A stretch of 64,000 bases of DNA from Escherichia phage Ecwhy_1. Positions 33,165 through 54,166 of the stretch are shown piece by piece. A program made the position numbers and the translations under genes. Location: sequence record MH791411.1. The stretch is one strand, 5' to 3'. Every line of letters starts with the position of its first letter. Position 1 is the stretch's first letter. Below the pieces are notes generated by a model. It was not told the DNA's origin. It searched no databases and worked only from the letters and a program-made list of their open reading frames with translations.

Positions 33165-33409
33165 TTTGAATCTCCTAACTTTGTGGGCCGTCGCACCATT
33201 GCCGCCCTACGAGATACATTATTGCAGTACTGATATACTTTGTCAATACTTTTTTATTAATAGTTTTAGTTCCACCAGCAGATAGTTACTCACCGTTATT
33301 AACTATATATTTTGGATACACTTATGCACCCTGTGGGCTAGTTTTTGTCTATGCGTATATAATAGCAAAGGGACTGACCTGAGTCAATCCCTTTTTTTAT
33401 TCTTTTTTG

Positions 33410-35718: not shown

Positions 35719-35940
35719 TTAATTACGTTTAAAATGATATGTGCCTTTATCATCCTGTACGCCCCATACTGATTTACCATCAACACCAGTGAAGCCGGAT
35801 TGTAATTCAATATGGAAACCATTATTATCAACTACAAAAACTTTTTTATTTTCATCCCGATAACATTGATATTCTGAATCAACATTAAAGGCCGCATCAT
35901 TCAGACGATTGGAAGCGTAAATGCAAGTCATTGTAGTCAT
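35719..35940 (-). CDS. hypothetical small protein
   Basis: trimmed to MTTMTCIYAS after leader. Confidence 0.4.
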   Translation of the reverse strand: MTTMTCIYASNRLNDAAFNVDSEYQCYRDENKKVFVVDNNGFHIELQSGFTGVDGKSVWGVQDDKGTYHFKRN

Positions 35941-36164
35941 GATTTTATTCCTTAATATACCAGGGAGAACCATTCCCCCTCTCGATATAAAACATTATAC
36001 TTGATTCTAAGTACAATGCAAGTACTTTTTTAAAAATAGTTTTCAGTACTGAATACTTATATAATAGATACACTTCCGCACCCTATGGGTCAGTGAGTTA
36101 TCTCTCAATGGATATATAATAGCAAAGGGACTGACCGGAGTCAATCCCTTTTTTTAATCTTTTT

Positions 36165-36749: not shown

Positions 36750-36780
36750 TGCATGTTCTCCTTGAGTTAATGAAACTATA

Positions 36781-37023
36781 TTACAGTACTTTACTATCAA
36801 TGGCAACTACTTTTTTAACATTAACGGCGTGGATCACTTCCTTCGTGTTTTTAGTACTGAATACTTTCGCCGCTCCTTGTTCGACCGTGATACGATAGCG
36901 ACCATTAACATCAACCATATTAATAAAGTCCGGCGTGCTGAATGGTGTTGTTTTACATTTGAGTACTGTTAACAGTTCCACCAGCGATGTAGTTTCTTTG
37001 ATACGTTTTTCTAAAGTAATCAT
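36781..37023 (-). CDS. hypothetical protein
   Basis: trimmed to MITLEKRIKE; track N-terminus is translated leader. Confidence 0.45.
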   Translation of the reverse strand: MITLEKRIKETTSLVELLTVLKCKTTPFSTPDFINMVDVNGRYRITVEQGAAKVFSTKNTKEVIHAVNVKKVVAIDSKVL

Positions 37024-37080
37024 TTTGTTTCCCCCGTGTTGGTATGTACATATAGTACTAAAACATTTGAGTACTGTCAA

Positions 37081-37299
37081 TTAGATAATATTATATTTCT
37101 TAAAATAAAATGCGTCCTGTGTTGGTTGATACTCGATACCGTTACCGTTATTGACTTCAACTAATAAACCTTTGTCAATTAGTTTTTTAATAGTACGATA
37201 CCCTTGTTGAAAATTGGTAAAATGTGAATCATTACGAAAGGTATAACCGTGCTTAACTGCTTCATCAATAGTTTTCTTTTCGATTTTAGATAATTTCAT
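37081..37299 (-). CDS. hypothetical protein
   Basis: trimmed to MKLSKIEKK; same leader as previous gene. Confidence 0.45.
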   Translation of the reverse strand: MKLSKIEKKTIDEAVKHGYTFRNDSHFTNFQQGYRTIKKLIDKGLLVEVNNGNGIEYQPTQDAFYFKKYNII

Positions 37300-37352
37300 T
37301 TTGTTTCTCCCGTGTTGGTATGTGTACATAGTACTAAAACAATTGAGTACTG

Positions 37353-37607
37353 TCAACGTGATATTAGTTTTATTTTCTTATTGTATTGTTGATGCTCATA
37401 AAGGTTTATCTTTCCTGTGTTCTCGATTACTATCCTGTTGTTAGTGTCCACGTCGATTACACGCAGTTTCCCGTTGCTTAACTTCCTAGGTAATAGGTTA
37501 CCATTAATAAACTCATTAGCAAGCTGTACGGCCTTTGTGATGATTCTCTGAGGTGCTTTATAGTGTACCCGTAAGATGTTATCTTTATATAGTTGAACCT
37601 TAATCAT
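37353..37607 (-). CDS. hypothetical protein
   Basis: 84-aa ORF. Confidence 0.4.
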   Translation of the reverse strand: MIKVQLYKDNILRVHYKAPQRIITKAVQLANEFINGNLLPRKLSNGKLRVIDVDTNNRIVIENTGKINLYEHQQYNKKIKLISR

Positions 37608-37625
37608 TTTGTTTGTCCTATAAAA

Positions 37626-37648
37626 AAGGCGGGAACTGATCCCGCCGT
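37626..37648 (-). terminator. rho-independent terminator
   Basis: minus-strand hairpin GGCGGGAtcagtTCCCGCC followed by T-run. Confidence 0.6.
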
Positions 37649-37668
37649 GTTGTTAGTACTGCAAGTTA

Positions 37669-38073
37669 TTAGATAACCTGGCGGCGTTTACTGTATACTG
37701 TTACACGATTACCCTTACGATCATGTCGGATCTCTTTCTGGTTGCGAATCAGTTCACTTGGACGCTTAAGGTTTGCCAGGTGATCCGCGTGAGTCCATGC
37801 GGTGTGGTTTACCTGTACTTTGATATCAGAATCAGCGATAAACTCATCTTGTGCGTCAAGTATTGCCGCCAGCATATCCGCTCGTTTTAGTTCTGCTGCT
37901 GTCAGTACTGGCTCAGGTGAATTCACAATATCAGAGATTTCTTTGAACTGTACGGCCCAGCGTTGACCTTTCGTTGCATCTTTGCCCATGTCTTTAAATG
38001 CTGCTCCTTCCTCGCGTGCAACAATACGGGCAGCTTCACGGGTAGCGTAGAATTTAGTAATCATGGTATACAT
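37669..38073 (-). CDS. hypothetical protein (paralog of 51079..51342)
   Basis: shared KFYATREAARI ... FKDMG ... RWA ... DRKGNRVTVY; start may be M4. Confidence 0.55.
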   Translation of the reverse strand: MYTMITKFYATREAARIVAREEGAAFKDMGKDATKGQRWAVQFKEISDIVNSPEPVLTAAELKRADMLAAILDAQDEFIADSDIKVQVNHTAWTHADHLANLKRPSELIRNQKEIRHDRKGNRVTVYSKRRQVI

Positions 38074-38159
38074 CCTATTAGTTGAGTTAGTACTACAAGT
38101 TAGAGTCTATTATAAAGTACTATCTGGGCAATGTCAAATAGTACTTTAAATGGATTCTA

Positions 38160-38483
38160 TTACATGTCTTTCTTACGTTTTACATCGTGGTAGCGAACTG
38201 TTATTTCTTTGTTGATCTCTTCCTCGATGCGATGAATAACTTTTTCTTTCGGGTTGAAACCTATAACGGTTTCTTTAATGATCTCCAAGCCCGTGTATTC
38301 GCCTTGTGTACCGTAACCGTATGTAAAGGTTTCGTGTCCCAGGTCTTCCCAGCGGTCGCCAATTAACGCAGACACGTAGCAAGAGTGGTAAGTATTGCCG
38401 TGTGAATCAGTCCACCGATTAACGTTAATGTCAAAGGAGGTTACAATTTTCAATTCTACTTTCTGGGCAAGGATCATAGCCAT
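38160..38483 (-). CDS. hypothetical protein (paralog of 45003..45326)
   Basis: shared RWTDSxGNTYHSC ... FTYGY ... VKRKKD. Confidence 0.55.
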   Translation of the reverse strand: MAMILAQKVELKIVTSFDINVNRWTDSHGNTYHSCYVSALIGDRWEDLGHETFTYGYGTQGEYTGLEIIKETVIGFNPKEKVIHRIEEEINKEITVRYHDVKRKKDM

Positions 38484-38570
38484 TTTTATTTCTCTCTCTT
38501 TGTTAGGAGGGGAACCATTCCCCTCGCTTGATGTAAACTATTATACAGTACTAAGATACTTTGTCAATAC

Positions 38571-38753
38571 TTATTTTTTGGAAAGTTTACGCATTAATTC
38601 TACGCTTTCTTGTGAACGTTTTGCTACCTGGCAAGCTGTATGGGCAGTAAACATTTTTGTATAGTCTGACGCTTTGCCACCGAACCGAGCGGCACGTTCA
38701 CGGGCACTTGGAACTAATACTATTTCTTTATTACAGATAGTGCACTTAGCCAT
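38571..38753 (-). CDS. small Cys-rich protein (possible zinc ribbon)
   Basis: trimmed to MAKCTICNK; CxxC ... HTAC spacing. Confidence 0.4.
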   Translation of the reverse strand: MAKCTICNKEIVLVPSARERAARFGGKASDYTKMFTAHTACQVAKRSQESVELMRKLSKK

Positions 38754-38841
38754 TTTTATTTCTCTCTCTTTGTTAGGAGGGGAACCGTTTCCCCTCACTT
38801 GATGTAAACTATTATACAGTACTAAGATACTTTGTCAATAC

Positions 38842-39117
38842 TTAAGTATTGTAAATGTCGTGAATAGTGATAAAGTTTTTACGACCGTAAACATGTAAAT
38901 CAGTATCAATGTAGTGCTTATCAAGTACATCCTCGACGCTTAAAGACGTGTCGTGAATATCTTCATAAAATTGTGGATCAACAATCGTGCTTAAGTCATC
39001 TGGCGTTAACTTATCGTTAAGGCATTGAACCGCCTGGATATCTGCTTCACGTTTCCATTGTTCCAGATTAGTAGTCAGTACTTGCTCGATTTCGTTAGCT
39101 GTAAGTAAAGTCCGCAT
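38842..39117 (-). CDS. hypothetical protein
   Basis: 91-aa ORF preceded by duplicated tandem-promoter leader. Confidence 0.45.
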   Translation of the reverse strand: MRTLLTANEIEQVLTTNLEQWKREADIQAVQCLNDKLTPDDLSTIVDPQFYEDIHDTSLSVEDVLDKHYIDTDLHVYGRKNFITIHDIYNT

Positions 39118-39578
39118 TTTAATGTTTCCTTATCAGTGGTTGATGTAAGTATTATACTCGTTTACTTTCTATTGTCAAACTATTTTATCAGGGGAGTTTT
39201 TCGTATGTCTTACTCCTGGACTACTTAACGGGGTTACTTATTTCGTTCCCCGTCCTGATGTAAAACATTATACTTGATTCTAAGTACAATGCAAGTACTT
39301 TTTTAAAAATAGTTTTCAGTACTAGCCACCAGCAAACAATAGATACATTTATGCACCCTGTGGGCTAATTTGTTTCTATGCGTATATAATAGCAAAGGGA
39401 CTGACCGGAGTCAATCCCTTTTTCAAATATTTTTAAACTTCTTTCGGGTTGCGATATGTGATAGCGTTCGGGTACATTTGTTTAATGTTATTCCATGCCT
39501 GGTTAACATTATAACCACTTGATCGAATCAGTTGGTTATTACCGACACCTTGAAACACTACTTCAAATAAGAATTCTT

Positions 39579-39752
39579 TCATGCTTTCACCTCTCGATCT
39601 GCTTTGCCTTTACGCCAGGCCGTTGCTAATTGTTCGCGTTGCCATAAGTCGAGTGATACGTAAAGTTTTGCATTATCACCCTTCGGATATTCGCCAGTAG
39701 TACCAATCCGATAAAACAGATCTTTCAGTACTGTTAATTCTACCTGGACCAT
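39579..39752 (-). CDS. hypothetical small protein
   Basis: trimmed to MVQVELTVLK. Confidence 0.4.
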   Translation of the reverse strand: MVQVELTVLKDLFYRIGTTGEYPKGDNAKLYVSLDLWQREQLATAWRKGKADREVKA

Positions 39753-39839
39753 TATACTTTCCTCTTTGTTAGGAGGGGAACTATTCCCCTTCCGATATAA
39801 AACATTATACACTTTATTCAGTACTGTGCAAGTACTTTT

Positions 39840-40052
39840 TTAATCTTTCAGCCAATGATCCTGAATGAATTTTTCACCGGAACCTTGCTGCATTGATTGT
39901 AACAGACGTTCGCGATGAGCGGCGGCGAATTGCTCAGTACTATGCGTTACACCTGGTTGATATCTGGATTCACCATTTGGGGCGATGTATTGTACATCCC
40001 ACGGTTTTTCGTTAGTATCAGACCATTTACGAACGATTAGTTGACCTTGCAT
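39840..40052 (-). CDS. hypothetical small protein
   Basis: 70-aa ORF, cassette upstream. Confidence 0.45.
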   Translation of the reverse strand: MQGQLIVRKWSDTNEKPWDVQYIAPNGESRYQPGVTHSTEQFAAAHRERLLQSMQQGSGEKFIQDHWLKD

Positions 40053-40135
40053 TTTTCTTTCCTCTTAGTGGGGAGAATCATTTCTCCCCTTCATGTAAAC
40101 TATTATACAGTACTGGATTGCATTGTCAATAGTTT

Positions 40136-40459
40136 TTATTCACCTTGTTTGAATATAGTTTTCTCCATTGATTCCATGATTGCAACCAATACAGCATGGA
40201 TCTCACTTAACGCGGCATCACTAAAAGCATTAATGAATAGGCAATCATTCTCGCGAATATTTTTAATGTACTTATCAGCAGTGGTTGCGAATTCATTCAA
40301 CGGCAGATCAAATGCTTTATCCCATAATGGATGGCGTAACTGTAACAGTACTGGATTATCACGATCACCAGGGGAAAACGTACCAGTGATGAAACATACG
40401 CCCGGAATACTTTCGAACTGGCAACGGACTTCCTTTGTGATAGTAGTATGAATGTACAT
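40136..40459 (-). CDS. hypothetical protein
   Basis: 107-aa ORF. Confidence 0.45.
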   Translation of the reverse strand: MYIHTTITKEVRCQFESIPGVCFITGTFSPGDRDNPVLLQLRHPLWDKAFDLPLNEFATTADKYIKNIRENDCLFINAFSDAALSEIHAVLVAIMESMEKTIFKQGE

Positions 40460-40486
40460 TTATTGTTATCCTCTATTAAATTAATA

Positions 40487-40675
40487 TTACAGTTTATGAA
40501 TTAATTCTTTATCTAAGCGATAGCGTACATTATTAATGGTAACAGCATTATTTTTAATGCTACGCTGTACGGGTCCACCAGCAATAACAAACGTTGCTTT
40601 ATTGCCCCGAACAATGATAGCACTTCCAGGATTACCGAAATCATCTTGTACTAAAATACTTGATAAGTTTTCCAT
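40487..40675 (-). CDS. hypothetical small protein
   Basis: 62-aa ORF, cassette upstream. Confidence 0.4.
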   Translation of the reverse strand: MENLSSILVQDDFGNPGSAIIVRGNKATFVIAGGPVQRSIKNNAVTINNVRYRLDKELIHKL

Positions 40676-40753
40676 TTTTATTTCCTCTTAGTAGGGGAAG
40701 ATGTTTCCCCTTGATGCAAGTACTATAACAGTACTGAAAACTAAATGCAAGTA

Positions 40754-41110
40754 CTATGATAAAATCATGATAGGATATTCACTATCTATCAATACCTCGA
40801 ATCCGAAACCTTCGTACCATTCTTTAAGATTAAAGGCGTTATCTTCTCCCGTATCGCATTCTAAGATGATACAATCTGAATCATCGGCGGCATCAATAAA
40901 GGCATTCATTAATTCGTTACCTTCACCATTGCCCCGACTATCAGGATCAACATAAAGAGAATCAATAAACGCTACACGGTCATAATCAAGATCCGGTGCA
41001 ATGATTCCACGTTTAACAAACCAGTACTGCAATTGTGCTACTTTGCCCTGTACTTGATAGCCAGTGATCTCGCCATTGTCAGTAGTACGCGTGATATGTT
41101 GTATTCCCAT
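40754..41110 (-). CDS. GNAT-family N-acetyltransferase-like protein
   Basis: motif-A-like VDPDSRGNGEGNELM and motif-B-like WYEGFGFE; short (118 aa). Confidence 0.45.
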   Translation of the reverse strand: MGIQHITRTTDNGEITGYQVQGKVAQLQYWFVKRGIIAPDLDYDRVAFIDSLYVDPDSRGNGEGNELMNAFIDAADDSDCIILECDTGEDNAFNLKEWYEGFGFEVLIDSEYPIMILS

Positions 41111-41173
41111 GATTACTATCCTCAGTTAAGATATAAAACATTATACACTATCTTTCAGTACTGTCAATACTTT

Positions 41174-41431
41174 TTATCTCATAGATCTATGCCAACAATT
41201 ACGCGGATCTCTTTTAAAAGTACTATCATGATCCTCCTGGCAAGTAATACAATACATGCACCCTATAACGGCCTGGCGTCGATTCTCAGGGATTTTATCG
41301 CCGCAGTCGAGGCAATGTACAAGTGATTCTCTTTGTGCGTTAATTTGCTTTCTAGCGTGGTTAACGGCGGCCTGAATCACTGCATGAATCTCGTCTTGTT
41401 CGGCCCCGTCTTTCGCGTATCCTACTGCCAT
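41174..41431 (-). CDS. TraR/DksA-family C4 zinc-finger protein
   Basis: CLDCGDKIPENRRQAV ... CITCQ matches CxxC ... IP..RR ... CxxC signature. Confidence 0.6.
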   Translation of the reverse strand: MAVGYAKDGAEQDEIHAVIQAAVNHARKQINAQRESLVHCLDCGDKIPENRRQAVIGCMYCITCQEDHDSTFKRDPRNCWHRSMR

Positions 41432-41594
41432 TATTTTAACCTCATTATAAAAATACTATAGTACTGTAATGCTACAATAATACTACTAGTGTTTATCTTA
41501 TTCAAACCATATGATACTACATATCCACCAGCATTACCACGAATAGTAACGCCTTTGTACTGTCTATATAAATTCAACTGCGTATATTGCCTTT

Positions 41595-41665
41595 GATCAA
41601 GAATTGATCAGAATTATACGCCTTATGCTAAATTGATCCAGTACTTTTTTGATCATTTATTGATC
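41595..41665. repeat. cluster of five TTGATC(A) repeats (5 GATC sites in 71 bp)
   Basis: GATC at 41595, 41606, 41635, 41651, 41662; in long leader upstream of TraR-like gene. Confidence 0.5.
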
Positions 41666-41760
41666 GATATTATATAGTTACATTTGTGCACCCTATGGGT
41701 TAGTGACGTTCTCGTCTTGATGTAAGTATTATGCCAGTACTGGAGGATATTGTCAATAGA

Positions 41761-41964
41761 TTATTTTAATTTTTTTCTGTCATTGATTAATGCTTTCAGT
41801 ACTATACTAATAACTTGCAATGATTCATCAATGACAATGAAATTATTCTCTTTCATTAGATGATAGTTACCATTGATTGTATATTCTAACGAGTACTGTT
41901 TACGTTTAATTTTTGATAATGTTTCTATTTGTTTTTGTACTGATTTCATGCTAATCATTGTCAA
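41761..41964 (-). CDS. hypothetical small protein
   Basis: 67-aa ORF. Confidence 0.4.
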   Translation of the reverse strand: MTMISMKSVQKQIETLSKIKRKQYSLEYTINGNYHLMKENNFIVIDESLQVISIVLKALINDRKKLK

Positions 41965-42063
41965 ACGTCCTGTAACGCATTCTAACGAGATAAACGGTTT
42001 AGTACTGGCATTGTATAGGGTAAATGATTAAAGCCCACCAGCGTTAACCAGTGGGCTATAATA

Positions 42064-42207
42064 TTACATCTTGCGGATAATCTTAACAGTATCTTTCACC
42101 GATTTACCGTTTTGCTGACATTGCTCGATCATCGCGTATTGTTCTGCGGTCAGATCCTCGCCAGTTTTTGCCAGTACTGCGTCGATGAATGAATCCAGTG
42201 CGATCAT
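42064..42207 (-). CDS. hypothetical small protein (47 aa)
   Basis: hand-translated ATG..TAA ORF; GCCCAC/GTGGGC terminator hairpin directly downstream. Confidence 0.35.
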   Translation of the reverse strand: MIALDSFIDAVLAKTGEDLTAEQYAMIEQCQQNGKSVKDTVKIIRKM

Positions 42208-42297
42208 TTTATTTCTCTCTTAGGTTAAGTTAACTACTGTTTATAAAACTTATTATACAGTACTATCAATCTATGTCAATAGTACTGGTAATATATT

Positions 42298-42477
42298 TTA
42301 GCGGTAGTCGTCGTATGCTTTATTCACCTGGCGAATATAACTTTCAAAGGCTTCGTCTACCGTTTCATACTCCCGAACATAATCACCATATGAAACTACA
42401 TACATACCTTTTTGATCTTCAAACGTCATGATGATAGAATCCAGACCAACGATTTCAGTTTTTGCGATGATAGCCAT
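42298..42477 (-). CDS. hypothetical small protein (59 aa)
   Basis: hand-translated ATG..TAA ORF in cassette-like spacing. Confidence 0.35.
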   Translation of the reverse strand: MAIIAKTEIVGLDSIIMTFEDQKGMYVVSYGDYVREYETVDEAFESYIRQVNKAYDDYR

Positions 42478-42560
42478 TTTTTAATTCCTTAGTAGTGTAG
42501 TTGATAAAAGTTATTATGTCAGTACTATCAAACTATGTCAATAGTACTGTGATAATATTT

Positions 42561-42773
42561 TTAGTTAATGATAGTCAGTGTAAAATTGTAATCACCGCAG
42601 CGATATAGCACGTTATTCCCAAATGTCCCAACTAATCGCACATCACACAAAACGCCGGTTTTTTCTTTTACTTCCTTGATACTTGTAACTCCTGTAATAT
42701 CTTTATTAAAGTATTCATGATCTGAAAATAAAACTTGTTTTGCATTTTTTAATTTCGACCGGATATTAGCCAT
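42561..42773 (-). CDS. hypothetical small protein
   Basis: 70-aa ORF with hairpin leader. Confidence 0.45.
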   Translation of the reverse strand: MANIRSKLKNAKQVLFSDHEYFNKDITGVTSIKEVKEKTGVLCDVRLVGTFGNNVLYRCGDYNFTLTIIN

Positions 42774-42869
42774 TTTGTTTTCTCTCTCTGTTAGTGGGGA
42801 GAAGTTTTTCTCCCCTTGATGTAAACTATTATACAGTACTATAATCTATTGTCAAACTATTTTTTTATA

Positions 42870-43211
42870 TTATTCGAAATCTTCTGGACCGGACTGATAA
42901 TCATCTTCACCGTATGCACTTTCTAACCGCTCGCCAGTGTGATCATCAGTTAGTGAGTCATCCTCATAGTTCACGTCTACGCCAGTGATGTAAAACTGGC
43001 TATCGTCTGGATCATTGAAATTAATTTTCTGTATGTTTACAATAACTGTATTGATGCCCAGGACACCGCCATCAGCCGTTACAAAGTACTGATAGTTTTC
43101 GCAACCGCCTGAATTGAAACCGTAATTAATTTCGGCCCGACCATCATTTAAACGCAGTGCCTGGGCGATGATTTCGTTTTCAAAGTTAGATTGAGCAATT
43201 GAGATAGTCAT
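42870..43211 (-). CDS. hypothetical acidic protein
   Basis: trimmed to MTISIAQSNF; acidic C-terminus. Confidence 0.45.
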   Translation of the reverse strand: MTISIAQSNFENEIIAQALRLNDGRAEINYGFNSGGCENYQYFVTADGGVLGINTVIVNIQKINFNDPDDSQFYITGVDVNYEDDSLTDDHTGERLESAYGEDDYQSGPEDFE

Positions 43212-43420
43212 GATTTGTTTCCTTATTACCAGGGGAAACCGTTTCCCCCTCTCGATGTAAAACATTATACGCTTATTGAGATAGTTTGCAAGTACTTTCT
43301 ACAAATACTTTTAAAATAGTTTTCAGTACTCAATACTCATATAATAGATACACTTATGCACCCTGTGGGCTAGTGAGCTATCTCTCAATGAATATATAAT
43401 AGCAAAATGGCTGACCGGAG

Positions 43421-43576
43421 TCAACCACTTTTTTCATTTATTTTTAGCTTTTAGAATCGCCGCCTTTCGCGTCATGCCTTGCTTGATGTATTCTTGTACT
43501 TTCGCTTTACGTGCATTCGCTTTATTTGCTTTCGTAAATGCCGAACAACTTTTATAGTTTAAACCTGTTGGATTCA
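43421..43576 (-). CDS. small basic protein (about 51 aa)
   Basis: hand-translated; Lys/Arg-rich; directly follows TM-peptide ORF; coordinates +/-1. Confidence 0.3.
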
Positions 43577-43667
43577 TTTAAATCACCATAAAGAATAGAT
43601 AGGTTACTAACAACGCCGCGATCAATGCACCGACCAGGGCCGAACTATAGTAAGCTAATGTTTTCAT
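43577..43667 (-). CDS. small hydrophobic peptide (about 29 aa, single TM helix)
   Basis: MKTLAYYSSALVGALIAALLVTYLFFMVI; ATGA overlap with upstream stop; coordinates +/-1. Confidence 0.3.
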
Positions 43668-43816
43668 TTTTTAGCCTGAAAGTAATGTTTAATTTGAGCG
43701 GCGGTCAGTGCACAATTACGCAGGAAGTTTTCTGTATAACTGCGGCGAGTACTGAAAGAGAATTGACCTTTGCCGTTACCGATAGTAACATCAAACCGAG
43801 CGTTGTATTGTTTCAT
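43664..43816 (-). CDS. hypothetical small protein
   Basis: trimmed to MKQYNARFDV after hairpin leader. Confidence 0.4.
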   Translation of the reverse strand: MKQYNARFDVTIGNGKGQFSFSTRRSYTENFLRNCALTAAQIKHYFQAKK

Positions 43817-43897
43817 TTTGATTCTCCTGTTATTGGGGAGAATCATTTCTCCCCTTCATGTAAAACATTATACAGTACTAAAAACTAATTGCAAGTA

Positions 43898-44044
43898 CTA
43901 TTTTTTAGATTTACGCAAACTTTCTACCATCTCAGGAGTAAGGCCCGGCGGGTAGGAAACTACTTCATCAACGAAACGTAAAGGGAATACCCCAGCGAAA
44001 GGTGAACGTGCTTTCTTAGTATTACTCTTTTTTGATGCTTTCAT
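43898..44044 (-). CDS. small basic protein (47 aa)
   Basis: hand-translated ATG..TAG ORF with promoter and hairpin upstream. Confidence 0.35.
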   Translation of the reverse strand: MKASKKSNTKKARSPFAGVFPLRFVDEVVSYPPGLTPEMVESLRKSKK

Positions 44045-44113
44045 TTCATATTCCTTAATTAGTGGGGAGAATCATTTCTCCCCTTCATGTAAAACATTAT
44101 ACGCGTTTAAAAA

Positions 44114-44323
44114 CTAATTGCAAGTACTATTTGAAAGTAAATGCTCATACGCTGCATTAACTACGTTTTCAATAACCGACTGTACAGAAAGATCCCCCAC
44201 GTCCTGGCTATAGTAGAAATCGCTTACAGTGGTGTCATCGTATGCAAATACTTTACCAGGTACTGCATCAATCACATACATATTAACCTTTAAGATGTCG
44301 ATCTTATCCTGTACAGTAAGCAT
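44114..44323 (-). CDS. hypothetical small protein
   Basis: 69-aa ORF. Confidence 0.45.
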   Translation of the reverse strand: MLTVQDKIDILKVNMYVIDAVPGKVFAYDDTTVSDFYYSQDVGDLSVQSVIENVVNAAYEHLLSNSTCN

Positions 44324-44328
44324 ATTAA

Positions 44329-44601
44329 TTAACCTTTTAAGTACTGGCTTAAGTAGTCTTGTTGATCTTCGGTGATTGCAGCCATCTTCCCTAGTACTGG
44401 ATTAATGATATAATCCCCTGTAACGTCCTGTAACGCATTCTCAGGCGGTTTAACGGCTGGGGTAGCCATAGCCATCGCCTGGACTTGTTCGACGCTATAA
44501 CGCTCATATAGGCGGCATTCTTCCGGTGTTAACATAGCATCAATGCGTTTCATTGGTTTAATGATGCTTTCAACTTCATTCAGTACTTGATTAACGTTCA
44601 T
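44329..44601 (-). CDS. hypothetical protein
   Basis: 90-aa ORF. Confidence 0.45.
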   Translation of the reverse strand: MNVNQVLNEVESIIKPMKRIDAMLTPEECRLYERYSVEQVQAMAMATPAVKPPENALQDVTGDYIINPVLGKMAAITEDQQDYLSQYLKG

Positions 44602-44652
44602 GGTATAATCCCCAATATAAGCGGCCTGAATCGACCGCTAACGATGTTTTGA

Positions 44653-44922
44653 TTAATAGGTGTATGGTTGACGTTCAAACAATGATTGCACGTTGTACGC
44701 CCCACTAATGGGCTTTGCTGGTAAATCAATTTTATATTGCTCACGCTTAAAGATAATAAAACGGCAATTGTTTTTAACATCAAAATTGATTGAACGTTCC
44801 AGTAGTTTACCATCGTGCACAAATACAAGATAACCGCTCGCTACTTGTTTTGTAGTACTGGTTGCAACCATAGACCGCCGAACATGTGTACCTGCGTCGA
44901 TTAAAGTACTGATATTTTTCAT
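44653..44922 (-). CDS. hypothetical protein
   Basis: 89-aa ORF. Confidence 0.45.
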   Translation of the reverse strand: MKNISTLIDAGTHVRRSMVATSTTKQVASGYLVFVHDGKLLERSINFDVKNNCRFIIFKREQYKIDLPAKPISGAYNVQSLFERQPYTY

Positions 44923-45002
44923 TATACGTTCCTCTTAAGTTAATTTAATTTCTTTCCCCTATGCAGACACTATATCAAAGTATCTGCATAAAGTAAAGCT
45001 AA

Positions 45003-45326
45003 TTAAAGATCTTTTTTGCGTTTAACATTCTGTACAGTACAATGCAACGGGATATTAAGATCATTGCACAAACGAGTAAGGGAGGTTTCATCAGTATTAA
45101 GCCCGTCTACTGATTCCTTTAATAGATCTAACGCCGTTTGTTGATATGCATCTTCATAGCCATAAGTAAATGATTCAACCGCCAGATCATTCAAACCGTT
45201 ATCCAGTTCGACGCTTACATGACAAGAATGATAAGTATTGCCATATGAATCAGTCCAACGTTTACCGTCAACATTGATTGCACGGATTGCAGCCAGGGAA
45301 ACGGTGTTAATGATAGTTTTAGCCAT
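45003..45326 (-). CDS. hypothetical protein (paralog of 38160..38483)
   Basis: shared RWTDSYGNTYHSCHV ... FTYGY ... VKRKKD. Confidence 0.55.
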   Translation of the reverse strand: MAKTIINTVSLAAIRAINVDGKRWTDSYGNTYHSCHVSVELDNGLNDLAVESFTYGYEDAYQQTALDLLKESVDGLNTDETSLTRLCNDLNIPLHCTVQNVKRKKDL

Positions 45327-45415
45327 TTTTGTATTCCTTAAATTAATATGTTGTCTTGATAAAATCTATTATGCCAGTACTATCAAACTATGTCAATAGT
45401 ACTGTGATAATATTT

Positions 45416-45628
45416 TTACTTACTTTCTTTCGCTGCTTTGTGCGTTGCCACTGCCATAACCACATCAGCACGAACAAAGTTTTTAACCGTGTCGCTGTAA
45501 TAATTGATCGCTTCATCAATATCTGCGAACATCCGATACATACCGCACCACGATACTTTATAACCTGCTTTCACTTCTTCCAGCTTAACCAGTGATTTGT
45601 TAACTTTGATTTTAGTAATGATAGCCAT
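45416..45628 (-). CDS. hypothetical small protein
   Basis: 70-aa ORF. Confidence 0.45.
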   Translation of the reverse strand: MAIITKIKVNKSLVKLEEVKAGYKVSWCGMYRMFADIDEAINYYSDTVKNFVRADVVMAVATHKAAKESK

Positions 45629-45707
45629 TTTATTTTCCTCAGTTGTCTTGATAAAATCTATTATGCCAGTACTATCAAACTATGTCAATAGCACTGTGAT
45701 AATATTT

Positions 45708-45851
45708 TTACTTACTTTTTGCTTTCTTGATTGCTTCCACCTGGTCGGCCCATTCTTTACCCCATACTTGTAAATTATAATGGTACTGGCAAAGAGCAAC
45801 GCCCCGCTTTAAACCCGTAATAGATTTCTGACCACATTGACAAGTTTTCAT
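45708..45851 (-). CDS. small Cys/His-containing protein (47 aa)
   Basis: hand-translated ATG..TAA ORF; CQCG ... CQYH spacing; hairpin leader upstream. Confidence 0.35.
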   Translation of the reverse strand: MKTCQCGQKSITGLKRGVALCQYHYNLQVWGKEWADQVEAIKKAKSK

Positions 45852-45937
45852 TTTAGTTTCCTTGTAGTGGGGAGAACCATTTTCTCCCCTTGATGTAATG
45901 TATTATACTTTATTCGATTTACTTTGCAAGTACTTTT

Positions 45938-46165
45938 TTAATTTAATTCATCAAGGCAAAGGATACGCTCAACGCCCAAATCAGTTAAACTAATCGACGG
46001 CACTTGATAGGTTTCAATGTATGCTACACTTGCCCACTGACCGAACTCATTAACGGCCCAGGTATTCATTGCATTTTGCAATTCCGCACCTTCCTTGTTG
46101 GTAATGACTGCAACTACTTGTTCGTTGCCAGTAGTACCAGATACGCGAGTAATGATAATAGCCAT
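45938..46165 (-). CDS. hypothetical small protein
   Basis: trimmed to MAIIITRVSG. Confidence 0.4.
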   Translation of the reverse strand: MAIIITRVSGTTGNEQVVAVITNKEGAELQNAMNTWAVNEFGQWASVAYIETYQVPSISLTDLGVERILCLDELN

Positions 46166-46406
46166 TGTTTTGATTCCTTTGATTTGGAAGGAGAACCGTT
46201 TCCCCCTCTCGATGTAAAACATTATACGCTAATCTCTTAATCGTGCAAGTACTTTTTATTACTTTTTGCAAAATACTTTAAACGCTCTCAATCGCGTTCT
46301 TACAGCCTTAACGCCACCAGCTAGGGCAATGCATCAGATAATCAGTTTAATGCGTTAGAATCGTTTCTAGGCGGTGCTGGTGGCATGGTAAACGATAAAC
46401 ACAAAA

Positions 46407-47802: not shown

Positions 47803-48039
47803 TTATGATTTTTTATAAAACATTTCAGCAGTGATATTTTTACCCGTTGGCTGTACTTTATCCAGAATTTTTTGATGCCCTGGTCGTCCAAAGGAATATG
47901 ATCCGTAAACAGTAAACCAGTAGTTACCCTCAGTGTTTACATGTACAGCACAATAAGGAACACCACGCGATTCATCACTAGTAAAGTGTGATACCGTTCC
48001 CGTTACATTCGCAGACGTTGATTTGATTTGTTCGACCAT
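47803..48039 (-). CDS. hypothetical small protein
   Basis: 78-aa ORF, cassette upstream. Confidence 0.45.
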   Translation of the reverse strand: MVEQIKSTSANVTGTVSHFTSDESRGVPYCAVHVNTEGNYWFTVYGSYSFGRPGHQKILDKVQPTGKNITAEMFYKKS

Positions 48040-48147
48040 TTTCTTATTCCTTAGTTACCAGGGGAACCGCTCCCCCTATGCAAAACATTATACGCGTTTA
48101 AAAACTAATTGCAAGTATTTTAATAAAAAGTATTTGAAAAATAGTTG

Positions 48148-48290
48148 TTGACAAGTGCATCCAGTACTGGCATAATTACTACATCAAGACGAAACAGTCA
48201 CTAACCCACCGGGTGCCGAGATCCGTCTATTAAATGATTCAGTACTGAAAAAGTAACGGGGAGTTATTATCTCCCCGTGTTGTTATTTTG
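48148..48290 (+). ncRNA. candidate small RNA / orphan plus-strand transcription unit
   Basis: TTGACA-N17-CATAAT promoter (48148-48176), no ORF, ends at bidirectional terminator hairpin CGGGGAGttattatCTCCCCG plus T-run. Confidence 0.3.
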
Positions 48291-48504
48291 TAAGGTATAA
48301 ACAGAAGTCGCCTTTATTTGCTACGCCGCCAGTGTAACGCGAGGAATAGTTAGAAACGTCCTGGACTTCTGCTATTACCAGGGTATCATCATTCAATTCG
48401 TCGCAGAAGCAAACGGCTGGATCTTGTACGCCGATTTTGTCGGCATGTTCCCGCATAGATTTAACCAGTGCTTCCAGTTGGGAAAGAGTAGTGATATTAG
48501 CCAT
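48283..48504 (-). CDS. hypothetical small protein
   Basis: trimmed to MANITTLSQL. Confidence 0.45.
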   Translation of the reverse strand: MANITTLSQLEALVKSMREHADKIGVQDPAVCFCDELNDDTLVIAEVQDVSNYSSRYTGGVANKGDFCLYLTK

Positions 48505-50557: not shown

Positions 50558-50586
50558 TTGACAGCATTATCAAGTACTGGTATAAT
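50558..50586 (+). promoter_or_regulatory. orphan sigma70-type promoter TTGACA-N17-TATAAT
   Basis: plus strand, no ORF downstream; faces minus-strand promoter at 50702-50730. Confidence 0.5.
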
Positions 50587-50701
50587 ATACCCCATGACAA
50601 CAGCTAACCCACCGGGTGCACAATTGTAACTATACTAAACTAATTTTTCTATAGATACACTCCCGCACCCTATGGGCTACGGCTTATCTGCCAATGAATA
50701 C

Positions 50702-50730
50702 ATTATGCCAGTACTGACAAAATAAGTCAA
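50702..50730 (-). promoter_or_regulatory. sigma70-type promoter TTGACT-N17-CATAAT (convergent partner)
   Basis: read on minus strand; leader contains AGCCCATAGGGTGC. Confidence 0.5.
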
Positions 50731-52490: not shown

Positions 52491-52518
52491 TTGACTTGAT
52501 CCTGAAAAAGCGTATAAT
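52491..52518 (+). promoter_or_regulatory. orphan sigma70-type promoter TTGACT-N16-TATAAT
   Basis: plus strand in ORF-poor region. Confidence 0.45.
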
Positions 52519-52716
52519 TACTACATAGACGCGAGAAAGCGGATACCCCAGGGGGTGGGAAGATCCGTCCAAAATTCAAGATATAAAAAAAGGATACACT
52601 CCCGCACCCTAGCAGGTAAACGCACTTTCTCAGTACTGAAATATAGTACCATAGTCCGGCCCAGGATAGCAAGCAAATTAATTAAAACTTTTTTGCTTCC
52701 AGGGTATTGCTTTATT

Positions 52717-52744
52717 TTTCCAGTACTGTATAATAGTTCCATCA
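52717..52744 (+). promoter_or_regulatory. orphan promoter (TTGCTT ... CAGTACTG-TATAAT)
   Basis: plus strand; leader contains AGCCCACCGGGTGC. Confidence 0.4.
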
Positions 52745-52956
52745 AGTCGAGAAAGACTCAAGCCCACCGGGTGCATAGTTACGCCCAAAATTCAGTACTG
52801 AAAAAATTTTTAAAAATATCCGGCCAGGCCGTTGACATTGCCCCCAGTTTATAAGATAATGATTCCAGATTCAGAAAAATCTAACACCAGATACTGCGGG
52901 GAAACTATCCCCACGCGGTAGGGGAACTATTGGAAAAAACAAAATAAAATTTTGAT

Positions 52957-53100
52957 TTAGCCGTCTATACTTCCAGACGTGTAACCATCTAGCCGTTTAG
53001 CCGTCCAAACGTCTAGCCATCCAGCCATCCAGAAATCTAGCCGTTTAGCCGTCTAGATGGATAGCCATCTTTACTTCCAGACTTCTGGAGGGCTAGACAT
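52957..53100. repeat. 8-bp periodic tandem repeat array (about 18 units, consensus TAGCCGTC)
   Basis: in-register 8-mers tagccgtc/tagccgtt/tagccatc/cagccatc ...; flanked by TACTTCCAGAC repeats and CCAGAcTTCTGG palindrome. Confidence 0.7.
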
Positions 53101-54166
53101 ATCTACGCCCAAAATCCATCCAGGGTAACTACGCCCAAAATCCGTCAGTACTATACCATAGATCTATCTTTTGAAAGGGAGTATTCAGTACTGCCATCAT
53201 AGCCCTCACTATGTTACCCTAGGAGGATGAAGACCATCATGTAGTACTGAATACTGTTAGAGGGAATCCACCAGCTTGTGCTGGTGGCATAATGCTTTAG
53301 ATTAAAATCAGTACTGACACCATTCTGTTAATATCAGTACTGTTATTACGATTTTCATATGAGGTTCAAAAAGATGTACCACCACAGGAGGAACTATCTT
53401 TTCTGTACTGTCTCACGACAGGAGGTAGAGTAAATGAATTGTTCGCAGCAACTCATCACCCTATGTAGAACATTATACAGTACTGAATCATAAAGTCAAT
53501 AACTTTCTTTCATCTTTCAGTACTGATATTCTTGAGAACTACCCGACTACAAACATCATTATATCCCACAAATCATAAACGTCCCAACGTAAATTTCAAC
53601 TTTCGAAGATCCAACTTTTATTTCATAGGTACTCCAAAATTTTTAGGATCGAGATTTAGGATGGAGTACTAACCAACTTTTTGCTGGAGCCTCAAGGGGT
53701 AATGGAATTTTACCCCGAAGGGTAAAGGGGTAATTGAAATTAAGGTGAAAGTAATAATTCAGTACTAATCATTGCGTGATTACTTTTGATTACATTTGAT
53801 GTAATTTGCAAAATGGAAAAGGAGCTTGGAAACTACAAAGTACGGCAGACTTCCTCTGCCTACTTAGTGGGATATCGCCACCTTCAGTACTGAATACTTT
53901 TAGGGCAGTACTGAATCCTTCCCTAGCATTCTTGAGTAATCTTGTCTATAATAATCAGTACTGAATCATATATAATCATTCTGTGATTCTACGGTGCTCA
54001 TATAAATGTTTATATATGATTACTTATGACTACATATGATTACGGGGTTTAGCCTGGGGAGAATCCTAGTGATCGCATTTGTCCAGGCTGAATTTTAACA
54101 ATTCTTCTAATTGTTAAAGCCTGTCCAATGCTTTCCCTGCGGAGCTTCCCCTGTCTATATGTTGAA

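What the first reader, a model, noticed from the sequence alone, without database searches (positions are those of the whole stretch)
48148..48290. ORF-less plus-strand transcription unit ending at a bidirectional terminator
A near-consensus plus-strand promoter (TTGACA-N17-CATAAT) sits between two minus-strand genes; about 100 nt downstream is a GC hairpin followed by a T-run on the plus strand that also terminates the converging minus-strand gene 48283..48504. No ORF with a start and SD is present, so the predicted product is a roughly 100-nt RNA carrying the conserved ACAUCAAGACGAAACAGUCACUAACCCACCGGGUGC leader.
Basis: inference. Interest (0 to 1): 0.5.

Follow-up and report, generated by a model that had tools for sequence, protein, structure and literature searches.

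The report
Repeated early non-coding RNA module
The gene-less promoter-to-hairpin unit is real, and it is one of eleven copies of an undescribed conserved promoter-plus-leader module found only in the terminal repeat (the early, host-takeover region) of giant Rak2-like phages; its function is still unknown.

Summary
A near-consensus sigma-70 promoter lies at 48148-48176 (TTGACA-N17-CATAAT, with TG). A GC hairpin at 48256-48278 is shared with the converging gene 48283-48504. No ORF lies between them, so the predicted RNA is about 105 nt.

The window is an Asteriusvirus jumbo coliphage, and the unit lies inside its roughly 22-kb direct terminal repeat. Its core, RCCCAYMGGGTGC, occurs 9 times exactly and 11 times by covariance model, all inside the repeat. 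Each copy sits 14-27 nt downstream of a strong promoter, and copies occur in both orientations.

The same module occurs 8-13 times in the terminal repeats of Klebsiella, Pectobacterium and Erwinia relatives. It was absent from bacterial genomes and from Rfam, and the papers I searched do not describe it. Orthologues keep the promoter, the start site, the core and a hairpin at a fixed distance, while the sequence between diverges.

It is non-coding. A 5' hairpin with varying, complementary arms points to an RNA-level role. Function is unresolved. I favour a protein-binding 5' RNA domain made at the very start of infection. The rivals are a cis-acting pause or attenuation element and a DNA operator.

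The parts
48148..48176 (+). Sigma-70-type promoter of the unit: -35 TTGACA (48148-48153), 17-nt spacer containing CAGTACTG (48162-48169), extended -10 TG (48168-48169), -10 CATAAT (48171-48176)
   Evidence: -35 and -10 invariant in 8 orthologues
48183..48183 (+). Predicted transcription start: the A of a CAT that is conserved in nearly all family members, 7 nt after the -10
   Evidence: inferred from sequence; TACAT invariant in orthologues; CAT seen across paralogues
48188..48199 (+). P1: short 5'-proximal hairpin, GAC (48188-48190) / GTC (48197-48199), with an A-rich loop GAAACA
   Evidence: 41 of 58 distinct units have a stem of at least 3 bp, built from at least 12 different arm pairs; changes on both sides in all 4 P1 pairs
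48204..48216 (+). Invariant core ACCCACCGGGTGC (family pattern RCCCAYMGGGTGC); can form P2, ACCC (48204-48207) / GGGT (48211-48214), with a 3-nt loop
48223..48230 (+). C element CCGTCT plus AT, at a fixed register 6 nt after the core (family pattern GYRTCT-AT)
48177..48240 (+). Covariance-model match to the whole conserved block (58.3 bits)
48240..48247 (+). CAGTACTG palindrome between the conserved block and the hairpin; also present in the orthologues
48256..48290 (.). GC hairpin (48256-48278) shared with converging gene 48283-48504; + strand tail GTTGTTATTTTG, - strand tail TTACTTTTTCA
   Evidence: the hairpin starts 48-54 nt after the core in 10 distinct units from several genera
33302..33364 (-). 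Family copy (66.3 bits), same direction as the genes; promoter TTGACT-17-TATTAT with its -35 inside a 12-bp hairpin (33394-33367)
36054..36117 (-). Family copy (62 bits), same direction as the genes, followed by the ordinary gene promoter
39329..39391 (-). Family copy (66.2 bits), same direction as the genes; a Chi site follows directly (39326-39333)
41664..41727 (-). Family copy (54.7 bits) and closest paralogue of the finding; upstream of a DksA/TraR zinc-finger gene (41174-41431)
43334..43397 (-). Family copy (63 bits), same direction as the genes
50581..50703 (.). Convergent pair of family copies: 50581-50643(+) and 50641-50703(-), with promoters at 50558-50586(+) and 50730-50702(-)
52519..52645 (.). 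Degenerate convergent pair: 52519-52582(+) at 25.3 bits and 52580-52645(-) at 15.6 bits. In the minus copy the P3 hairpin (52610-52591) is followed by seven T and scores as a terminator
52735..52798 (+). Family copy (40.8 bits) about 1.07 kb from the left genome end, pointing outwards

Best explanation
The unit is a real, selected, non-coding early transcription module. Host sigma-70 RNA polymerase starts at A48183 and transcribes a conserved block of about 45 nt. The block consists of a 5'-proximal hairpin P1 with an A-rich loop, a CUA linker, the invariant core RCCCAYMGGGUGC (mini-hairpin P2), a 6-nt spacer and the element GYRUCU-AU.

At this locus the module is inverted relative to the gene array. 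It runs into the terminator hairpin of the converging gene, which gives an RNA of about 105 nt. It is one of 11 copies in this genome's direct terminal repeat. The family is confined to the terminal repeats of Rak2-like jumbo phages.

Shown: the anatomy, the copy number, the restriction to the terminal repeat, the conservation across genera and the lack of coding capacity.

Inferred: transcription from the predicted start. The block acts as RNA, because P1 keeps its pairing through arm changes and uses G-U pairs. Its never-varying core is a sequence-specific handle for a protein (host or phage), made in many copies in the first minutes of infection. The working part is therefore the 5' domain, whatever lies 3' of it.

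I consider a trans-acting binding or decoy role the most likely version of this, but only weakly so.
For: Core enrichment. The core occurs 9 times against 0.16 expected. The covariance model finds 11 copies, all between 33.3 and 52.8 kb, which is inside the terminal repeat mapped to 31912-53864.

Family distribution. The model gives 74 hits in Rak2-like loci: Muenster, RaK2, 121Q, the 378-kb contig I take to be CBB, two other jumbo contigs and a 109-kb metagenome contig. It gives none in the 23 unrelated IMG/VR loci that merely shared the 16-mer. Exact 16-mers cluster in one 16-20-kb region per genome. A 24-position pattern from the block (19 specified bases) gives only 6 hits in GTDB species representatives, all in unrelated taxa.

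Promoter link. In the copies listed, a strong promoter lies upstream at a constrained distance in all but a degenerate copy at the Muenster genome end.

Orthologue conservation. The orthologue alignment keeps the -35, the -10, the CAT start, the core and the TCT of the C element across genera, while the rest diverges.

Hairpin geometry. 10 of 61 distinct units have a GC hairpin starting 48-54 nt after the core, with different stem sequences. That is a conserved RNA geometry.

P1. 41 of 58 units have a stem of at least 3 bp, built from at least 12 arm pairs. Stems of at least 4 bp number 27, against a shuffle mean of 14.6 and a maximum of 22. All 4 model pairs show changes on both sides, and no shuffle reaches the observed covariation score. 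Wobble pairs such as TGGC/GCTA fit RNA on this strand only.

P2. P2 is paired in 99% of cells, and its closing pair alternates A-U and G-U.

Non-coding. In the only open frame, many copies have an in-frame stop 6-9 nt upstream with no start codon, or a stop right after the core.

Precedent. The distantly related jumbo phage PA5oct has two highly expressed, RNA-seq-verified ncRNAs in its terminal repeat (PMC7318152).
Against: No expression or binding data exist. Promoter use, the start site and the 3' end are all predictions.

The CCC/GGG pairs of P2 never covary. The core is therefore as well explained by recognition as DNA, or by the transcribing polymerase, as by RNA structure.

Only about a fifth of units have a downstream hairpin. 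About half run into the next promoter and gene, and a quarter sit in convergent pairs. That is unusual for a trans-acting sRNA.

Copies in the gene direction are spaced every 2-3 kb at operon boundaries, which suits a cis role.

The whole 110-nt RNA does not fold better than shuffles (z = -1.46).

17 of 58 units lack a P1 stem of 3 bp or more.

No candidate partner was identified. There is no complementarity to rRNA beyond 8 nt.
Confidence: 0.5

Rival explanations
1. The block is a cis-acting transcription-elongation signal. It would act on the polymerase that makes it, as a promoter-proximal hairpin-assisted pause, as an attenuator switching between P2 (CCC:GGG) and P3 (GGGUGC:GYRUCU), or as a nut/put-like site that loads a factor or alters termination downstream.
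For: The distance from promoter to block is fixed, and the module works in any 3' context.

Copies in the gene direction sit right after a terminator hairpin and before a gene promoter, every 2-3 kb in a terminator-rich array.

The two helices are mutually exclusive. P3 pairs in 91.7% of cells, against 31-66% when the register is slid. C40-to-G occurs together with C47.

In the copy at 52610-52591 the P3 hairpin is followed by seven T and scores as a terminator.

GG-N8-TG, the spacing of the elemental pause consensus (from memory of Larson et al. and Vvedenskaya et al. 2014), fits the 25 of 44 seed units that have G at column 47 (pair 40-47).
Against: P3 energy ranges from -6.9 to +4.9 kcal/mol. 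It is +0.7 in this copy and at or above 0 in the whole CCGTCT/CTGTCT subfamily.

P3 variation is one-sided and consists of transitions opposite G or U, which cannot be told apart from transition bias.

The pause consensus is not met in this copy, which has C at the +1 position.

There is no boxA sequence, and the triloop hairpin does not match lambda boxB.

The reappearance of a new unit after each boundary argues against processive antitermination.

Inverted copies have no gene downstream to regulate.
Confidence: 0.22
2. The block is a DNA-level element. It could be an operator or roadblock for a phage or host DNA-binding protein that shuts off the strongest early promoters, or a transcription-activated origin or R-loop site in the terminal repeat.
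For: The core never varies, even where pairing would allow it, which is typical of direct sequence read-out.

The conserved register extends 26 bp without gaps.

Inverted pairs of the core at quantised spacings (+59, +70, +77) look like paired binding sites.

The location in the terminal repeat, the outward-facing copy 1.07 kb from the genome end and the AT-rich DNA downstream fit an origin or end function.
Against: Among the copies inspected, all but a degenerate one at the Muenster genome end have a promoter in the same orientation at a fixed distance. A pure DNA site would not need that.

The core is not a dyad.

P1 next to it keeps its pairing through arm changes and includes G-U pairs, which is a strand-specific, RNA-type signal.

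No known operator consensus matched by eye. A DnaA box matches only 7 of 9 positions in the best variants (comparison from memory).
Confidence: 0.13
3. This copy is a cis-antisense regulator of the converging early gene 48283-48504, like lambda OOP. The plus-strand RNA, or read-through of it, would pair with the 3' end or body of that mRNA, or its polymerase would collide with the gene's polymerase.
For: The strong promoter fires against the gene array and shares the gene's terminator.

The + strand U-tract is weak in several orthologues, so read-through antisense RNA is plausible.

The inverted orientation is conserved in Muenster, RaK2, 121Q and Hallingskeid.
Against: This does not explain the invariant 5' block, which most copies carry without facing any gene.

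If termination works, the overlap is only the self-paired terminator plus about 8 nt of coding sequence.

In the inverted units from different genera, the genes facing the unit were not shown to be homologous.
Confidence: 0.08
4. The block encodes a micropeptide. Candidates are the frame L-(T/A)-H-R-V through the core, the mini-ORF RTG-TAT-CTA-TAG after a GGGUG Shine-Dalgarno-like sequence, or a leaderless AUG in the CATG copies.
For: The variable positions of the core are synonymous or conservative in one frame: CAC/CAT = His, AGG/CGG = Arg, ACC/GCC = Thr/Ala (read). 25 of 44 seed units have G, and nearly all have T before it, at the codon position 5 nt after GGGUGC, so an NTG triplet is possible there.
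Against: Many copies have an in-frame stop 6-9 nt upstream of the core with no start codon. Several stop immediately after HRV. Most in-frame TTG or GTG codons lie inside the promoter.

The other two frames contain stops within the core variants (TAA/TAG and CCA-TAG).

The mini-ORF is absent from this copy and from the whole ATC/GTC subfamily.
Confidence: 0.02
5. A promoter-like and a terminator-like site lie together by chance in AT-rich intergenic DNA, and nothing functional is there.
For: AT-rich phage DNA gives many weak promoter-like hits: 22 found against 14 expected at the 9/12 threshold.
Against: At the 11/12 threshold there are 5 against 0.54 expected. The unit is conserved in position and in parts across genera, and its core is 56-fold enriched.
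Confidence: 0.02

Closest known systems
Lambda OOP RNA (and similar short phage antisense RNAs such as P22 sar); comparison from memory
   Same: It is a short ORF-less RNA made by host polymerase from a constitutive-looking promoter. It is oriented against the surrounding genes and ends at an intrinsic terminator that abuts the 3' end of a converging gene.
   Different: OOP is single-copy, and its function lies in about 55 nt of antisense overlap with cII. Here the overlap is only the terminator. The conserved part is a 5' block shared by 11 copies, most of which face no gene.
ncRNA001 and ncRNA002 in the direct terminal repeat of Pseudomonas jumbo phage PA5oct (PMC7318152)
   Same: They are ORF-less, highly transcribed regions inside the long terminal repeat of a distantly related jumbo phage that relies on host RNA polymerase. 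Their function is unknown.
   Different: They are 236 and 451 nt long, and no promoter is known for them. The covariance model finds no match in either region (best 11.9 bits, E = 1.3). There is no evidence that they form a repeated family.
PeSL cassettes (promoter-early stem-loop) of T4-like phages (PMC2839356, PMC4122927)
   Same: They are composite terminator stem-loop plus near-consensus sigma-70 early promoter elements, repeated between small early or ORFan genes. Four unit promoters here (33394, 36151, 39421, 43431) have their -35 inside a 12-bp hairpin that scores as a terminator.
   Different: As described in those papers, a PeSL is a promoter plus stem-loop, with no conserved transcribed block. 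The finding's own promoter has no stem-loop. PeSLs are proposed to drive recombinational shuffling, not to make an RNA.
Lambda nut sites and HK022 put RNAs (promoter-proximal RNA elements that modify the transcribing polymerase); comparison from memory
   Same: They are conserved RNA elements just downstream of early promoters, present on divergent early transcripts, in a terminator-rich early region. The P2 stem GCCC/GGGU resembles the GCCC/GGGC stem of lambda boxB.
   Different: There is no boxA. The loop is 3 nt, not the 5-nt boxB loop. There are 11 copies rather than 2, including copies with nothing to read through to. Put RNAs are two-hairpin elements of about 70 nt with no sequence resemblance to this block.
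Host-takeover modules in the terminal redundancy of SPO1 and the pre-early region of T5; comparison from memory
   Same: They are terminal repeats packed with small genes of unknown function, strong host-type promoters and terminators.
   Different: As far as I know, no repeated conserved transcribed block has been described for them.

Membership tests
Any Rfam 15 family | Covariance-model match at or near the gathering score | tested here: not met
   There are no hits at gathering score in the whole window. At E up to 10, three units give only terminator-like or noise matches, at most 23 bits against cut-offs of 37-140.
tRNA / tmRNA | ARAGORN-detectable cloverleaf or tag peptide | tested here: not met
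   No genes found in the window.
Terminator-bounded bacterial or phage sRNA gene | Own promoter with a plausible start site | tested here: met
   The promoter matches 11/12 positions and has an extended -10. It is conserved in 8 orthologues.
Terminator-bounded bacterial or phage sRNA gene | Intrinsic terminator (GC hairpin plus U-tract) on the RNA's own strand | tested here: inconclusive
   The hairpin is present and sits at a conserved distance. The U-tract is interrupted here, and weak or absent in several orthologues.
Terminator-bounded bacterial or phage sRNA gene | No translated ORF | tested here: met
Terminator-bounded bacterial or phage sRNA gene | Detected transcript of defined size | not testable with these tools
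   No transcriptome was found for Asteriusvirus or Alcyoneusvirus.
Lambda OOP-type cis-antisense RNA | Substantial antisense overlap with the coding region of the converging gene | tested here: not met
   If the RNA ends at about 48288, the overlap with gene 48283-48504 is about 6-8 nt of coding sequence plus the shared hairpin. It would be met only through read-through.
Lambda nut site | boxA (CGCTCTTA-like) followed by a boxB hairpin with a 5-bp stem and a 5-nt GNRA-like loop | tested here: not met
   The consensus of 58 units shows an A-rich segment, CTA, and a 4-bp stem with a 3-nt loop. There is no boxA. The consensus sequences compared are from memory.
PeSL (T4-like promoter-early stem-loop) | Terminator-like stem-loop fused to a sigma-70 early promoter | tested here: not met
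   There is no stem-loop at the -35 of the 48148 promoter. The feature is met for four other units. The conserved transcribed block is not part of the PeSL definition (PMC4122927).
Elemental/hairpin pause signal (G-10 Y-1 G+1) | GG-N8-YG in register with an upstream RNA hairpin | tested here: not met
   This copy reads GGGTGCCGAGAT-C, so the +1 base is C. The pattern fits the 25 of 44 seed units with G at column 47.
Small protein gene | Open frame with a start codon inside the transcript, kept across copies | tested here: not met
The new family itself (terminal-repeat promoter plus RCCCAYMGGGUGC block) | Strong sigma-70 promoter, CAT start, core 14-27 nt downstream, C element 6 nt after the core, location in the terminal repeat of a Rak2-like phage | tested here: met
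   This copy scores 58.3 bits with model R1. All features were read at 48148-48230. It lies inside the terminal repeat.

The most novel reading that the evidence does not exclude
The terminal repeat of Rak2-like jumbo phages carries a dedicated RNA-based host-takeover device. Eight to thirteen very strong early promoters would flood the cell, within the first minute, with RNAs that share an invariant 5' domain. That domain would capture or reprogramme a conserved enterobacterial factor, such as RNA polymerase itself, an RNA chaperone or nuclease, or a defence sensor. The convergent pairs would add a second output, either double-stranded RNA or arrested polymerases. This would be a new class of phage regulatory RNA with no counterpart in model phages.
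Probability: 0.25. Interest if true: 0.8.

Novelty: new variant of a known kind. Interest (0 to 1): 0.6.

Why it matters
Jumbo phages of the Rak2 group (Asteriusvirus, Alcyoneusvirus, CBB and others) are candidates for phage therapy, yet most of their genes have no known function (83% in phAPEC6, PMC7247149). Their terminal repeats are thought to be the early, host-takeover region, but they are annotated only as lists of hypothetical proteins.

This analysis shows that the repeat also carries a strongly selected, multi-copy non-coding module that no annotation or RNA database records. It gives a concrete, testable handle on the very first events of infection: eleven predicted start sites, a 13-nt core to mutate, and a 45-nt RNA to pull down.

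If the module binds a host factor, it would be a new kind of phage takeover RNA. If it acts on the polymerase, it would be a new promoter-proximal control element. In either case it should be modelled as an RNA family so that these genomes are annotated properly.

Tried and rejected
- **Rfam:** searched at gathering score on the whole window and at E up to 10 on three units. Nothing but terminator-like noise.
- **tRNA/tmRNA:** none.
- **Coding capacity:** all three frames through the core, the leaderless AUG in CATG copies and the mini-ORF after GGGUG were examined. Rejected because of in-frame stops, missing starts and absence from whole subfamilies (and the alignment).
- **Host origin or prophage copies:** a 24-position pattern from the block (19 specified bases) gives 6 hits in one-genome-per-species bacteria and archaea, none in Enterobacterales.
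- **Pairing with or mimicry of E. coli rRNA:** the rrnB operon (16S, 23S, 5S, leader and spacer) shares no word longer than 8 nt in either sense. A duplex-energy scan timed out.
- **Long-range covariation:** mutual information across the block is dominated by subfamily structure. No pair beyond P1 stands out.
- **P3 as a universal helix:** rejected, because it is unstable in the CCGTCT/CTGTCT subfamilies, which include this copy.
- **Paralogy of downstream genes** (a shared leader for one gene family): none found. Pfam gives only a DksA/TraR finger and a DUF.
- **PA5oct terminal-repeat ncRNAs as homologues:** no model match.
- **Look-alikes compared by eye with consensus sequences recalled from memory, and dropped:** DnaA box (7/9 at best, and it does not explain GGGTGC); EcoKI site AAC-N6-GTGC (the spacing here is N7, and only in some copies); Ter/Tus (8-9 nt of TGTAACTA in two copies only); hammerhead core (CGAAAC...GUC without room for stem III); N4-type promoter hairpins.
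- **Literature:** searches on Asteriusvirus, phAPEC6, fEgEco12, CBB, Sharanji, RaK2 transcriptomes and cappable-seq of jumbo phages found no description of the motif.
Full report
**What the window is.** The region 47700-48700 matches 38 phage records at 80-99% identity. All are Escherichia or Salmonella jumbo phages of the Asteriusvirus group, including PBECO4, 121Q, phAPEC6, G17 and fEgEco12. Position 1 of fEgEco12 aligns to window 53864. That phage's termini were set by PhageTerm and checked by restriction digestion (PMC13070987). The end of its 20,993-bp direct terminal repeat aligns to about 31912. The finding therefore lies about 5.6 kb inside a roughly 22-kb terminal repeat. Both borders of that repeat are physical genome ends. 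The repeat is a dense array of small minus-strand genes. Most genes have their own promoter (TTGCAA-N16-TATAAT), a 5' leader hairpin and a Shine-Dalgarno sequence.

**The observation.**
- TTGACA-N17-CATAAT at 48148-48176 matches 11 of 12 positions and has an extended -10 TG.
- Such near-consensus sites are not background. The + strand of the repeat holds 5 of them, against 0.54 expected from shuffles.
- The hairpin at 48256-48278 scores as terminator-like on both strands.
- No ORF of 20 aa or more lies on the + strand of the unit. The only ATG and GTG open 4- and 6-codon frames without a ribosome-binding site.
- With a start at A48183 and an end near 48288, the RNA would be about 105 nt.
- The whole RNA does not fold better than shuffled sequence (z = -1.46). 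The terminator hairpin is its only strong structure.

**The leader is a repeated element.**
- Its 3' part, CTAACCCACCGGGTGC, has 8 relatives. The 13-nt core RCCCAYMGGGTGC occurs 9 times exactly, against 0.16 expected.
- A covariance model built from 44 distinct units finds 11 copies in the window. Seven are on the gene strand and four on the opposite strand.
- All copies lie between 33.3 and 52.8 kb, inside the terminal repeat. None lies in the other 42 kb of the window.
- Each copy inspected sits downstream of a strong promoter, with the core 14-27 nt after a conserved CAT, the likely start.
- Conservation runs without gaps from about 10 nt before the core to about 26 nt after its first base: aAA....cTA-RCCCAYMGGGTGC-N6-GYRTCT-AT. 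It then stops.

**Distribution.**
- A sensitive DNA search with the 156-nt unit finds it in 51 records. Besides about 30 Asteriusvirus genomes at 85-99% identity, it hits the Klebsiella phages RaK2, K64-1 and Muenster at about 72%. The core region alone also matches Erwinia phage Hallingskeid, Salmonella phage Munch and its relatives, and Klebsiella phage fENko-Kae01.
- In Muenster and fENko-Kae01 the match lies inside the annotated terminal repeat.
- Muenster's repeat holds 8 copies of the core.
- An exact-pattern scan of IMG/VR hit jumbo-phage contigs whose lengths match RaK2, 121Q and CBB, two further jumbo contigs and a 109-kb metagenome contig. The hits in each genome cluster in one 16-20-kb region.
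- The model gives 74 hits in these loci. It gives none in the 23 unrelated loci that shared the 16-mer by chance.
- Bacterial and archaeal genomes hold only a handful of matches to a longer pattern, in unrelated taxa.
- Rfam has nothing, and no paper I could find mentions the element.

**Orthologues of this unit.** I aligned eight orthologues: the window, phAPEC6, PBECO4, TH47, 121Q, Muenster, RaK2 and Hallingskeid.
- The -35, the -10, TACAT, the core, the TCT of the C element and an AGTA are invariant. Other positions diverge.
- All eight have a GC hairpin, built from four different stem sequences (GGGGAG, GGGGATC, GGGAGAC, GGGGGAA).
- Across 61 distinct units, 10 have a perfect GC hairpin starting 48-54 nt after the core. 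That distance is remarkably constant across genera. An eleventh hit, at +122, is the leader hairpin of the next gene.
- The U-tract on the unit's strand varies. It is good in Muenster and RaK2, interrupted here, weak in TH47, PBECO4 and 121Q, and absent in Hallingskeid. The hairpin is therefore first of all the terminator of the converging gene.
- Of the other units, 16 form 8 convergent pairs with the antisense core at +59, +70 or +77. About half run on into the next promoter and gene.

**Coding or not.** One frame through the core reads L-(T/A)-H-R-V, and the variable positions are synonymous in it. However, many copies have an in-frame stop 6-9 nt upstream with no start codon. Several stop right after the core. 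Most in-frame start codons lie inside the promoter. The other frames contain stops within core variants. A mini-ORF after the core exists only in one subfamily and not in this copy. I therefore reject coding.

**Structure.**
- *P1, a short hairpin a few nucleotides from the 5' end.* It has at least 12 different complementary arm pairs closing an A-rich loop (AGAACAA, AGATAA, GCGAAA, GAAACA). 41 of 58 units have at least 3 bp. Stems of at least 4 bp number 27, against a shuffle mean of 14.6 and a maximum of 22. On the model alignment all four P1 pairs show changes on both sides, and no shuffle reaches the observed score, although only 51% of cells pair. Some stems use G-U pairs. This is the best sign that the block works as RNA.
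- *P2 (RCCC/GGGU, 3-nt loop).* It pairs in 99% of cells, but the CCC/GGG pairs never vary. The core is therefore read as sequence, not merely as a helix.
- *P3, an alternative helix.* GGGUGC with GYRUCU pairs in 91.7% of cells, against 31-66% in slid registers. The variation is one-sided. Its energy runs from -6.9 to +4.9 kcal/mol and is +0.7 in this copy, so it is not universal. In one degenerate copy (52610-52591) P3 is followed by seven T and looks like a real terminator.

**What it most likely does.** The facts to explain are these:
- strict coupling to a strong host-type promoter at a fixed distance;
- an invariant core next to a freely varying hairpin;
- 8-13 copies confined to the earliest-expressed DNA;
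- use in either orientation and with any 3' context;
- conservation across phages of Escherichia, Klebsiella, Pectobacterium and Erwinia.

I think the best fit is a non-coding 5' RNA domain that a conserved protein recognises. It would be produced in bulk at the very start of infection. This locus is the version in which the domain is released as an RNA of about 105 nt. I put about 0.5 on this RNA-level reading as a whole, and less on the specific trans-acting decoy or handle version.

The main rival (about 0.2) is a cis-acting signal for the transcribing polymerase: a pause, a P2/P3 attenuator or a factor-loading site. It fits the spacing of gene-direction copies at operon boundaries. It fits poorly with the inverted copies and with the unstable P3. 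A DNA operator, or an origin or R-loop site, is possible (about 0.13) because the core never covaries. It does not explain the obligatory promoter or P1. A lambda OOP-like antisense role could apply to this copy if termination is leaky (about 0.08), but it cannot explain the family.

**Comparison with known systems.**
- By architecture this copy resembles lambda OOP RNA: a short, ORF-less RNA, antisense-oriented and ending at the foot of a converging gene. It fails the defining overlap.
- The setting resembles the PeSL promoter/terminator cassettes of T4-like phages (PMC2839356, PMC4122927). Four unit promoters are indeed embedded in terminator-like hairpins. PeSLs, however, have no conserved transcribed block.
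- PA5oct shows that terminal-repeat ncRNAs can be highly expressed in a related jumbo phage (PMC7318152), but they are not homologous.
- Nut and put elements are functional analogies only. Their defining sequence features are not met.

I therefore file this as a new variant of a known kind, a phage early non-coding RNA or leader element. It is not a member of any described family.

**Verdict.** Function is unresolved but directly testable. Interest: 0.6.

Noticed in passing
window 33272-46383 and 53268-53287: Chi sites (GCTGGTGG) number 12 in the window against 0.46 expected. Eight lie on the minus strand between 33.3 and 46.3 kb. By my recollection of Chi polarity, that orientation would stop RecBCD entering at the right genome end (window about 31912). 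Sites 53280(+) and 46376(+) face the left end (about 53864). An inverted pair CCACCAGC-ttgt-GCTGGTGG sits about 0.6 kb from the left end. Chi also lies in the promoter spacers of units in other phages. This looks like an end-protection array.
   Followed up: partly
whole window, densest at 32000-54000: The palindrome CAGTACTG occurs 69 times against 0.62 expected. It lies in promoter spacers (TTGACA-N9-AGTACTG-NN-ATAAT), next to -35 elements (AAAAAGTACTTGCAA), and free-standing between units and hairpins. It probably binds a dimeric regulator. Its AGTACT centre resembles the SlmA-binding sequence GTGAGTACTCAC (from memory, untested).
   Followed up: no
window 52962-53113: A tandem array with an 8-bp period (CGTCTAGC-like, about 18 units, family D13) lies about 0.8 kb inside the left genome end. 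It sits in a gene-free stretch of about 1 kb (52800-53864) that also holds eight CAGTACTG sites and the Chi pair.
   Followed up: no
window 32789-53517 (26 copies, families D1-D3): A standard early-gene cassette is repeated before most small genes: an UP-like AAAAAGTAC, TTGCAA-N16-TATAAT, a start at ACATC, a 5' leader hairpin (GGGGAGAA...TTCTCCCC) and a Shine-Dalgarno sequence. The finding's RNA begins with the same ACATCAAG.
   Followed up: partly
window 33394-33367, 36151-36124, 39421-39394, 43431-43404 (minus strand): Four unit promoters have their -35 (TTGACT) inside a 12-bp hairpin, AAAGGGATTGACTCCGGTCAGTCCCTTT, which scores as a terminator for upstream transcripts. This terminator/promoter fusion resembles the PeSL cassettes of T4-like phages.
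   Followed up: partly
window 50558-50730 and 52491-52660; L019 980-1104 and 3790-3914; L003 2766-2899 and 8022-8163: Units often come as convergent pairs. Their predicted starts are about 100-150 bp apart, so the two RNAs would be complementary over their conserved blocks. The antisense core lies at quantised distances of +59, +70 or +77. The possible consequences (double-stranded RNA, polymerase collision, cruciform) were not explored.
   Followed up: partly
window 41174-41431 (minus strand): The early gene downstream of unit 41664-41727 encodes an 85-aa DksA/TraR-type C4 zinc-finger protein (Pfam PF01258, E = 3.7e-09). Proteins of this family bind the secondary channel of RNA polymerase (from memory), so it may be a host-polymerase modulator.
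   Followed up: no
window 52832-52860 (+) and 52735-52798 (+): A family unit and a second near-consensus promoter (TTGACA-17-GATAAT) both point outwards, towards the left genome end about 1 kb away. On the linear genome they would give run-off transcripts. Muenster has a degenerate core 18-30 nt from its predicted end.
   Followed up: no
window 48023-48151 (+): WPEC3 (PV611058.1) annotates a 40-aa 'hypothetical protein' that corresponds to a TTG-started ORF here. It overlaps the start of gene 47803-48039 and spans the two divergent promoters. It is most likely a spurious call.
   Followed up: partly
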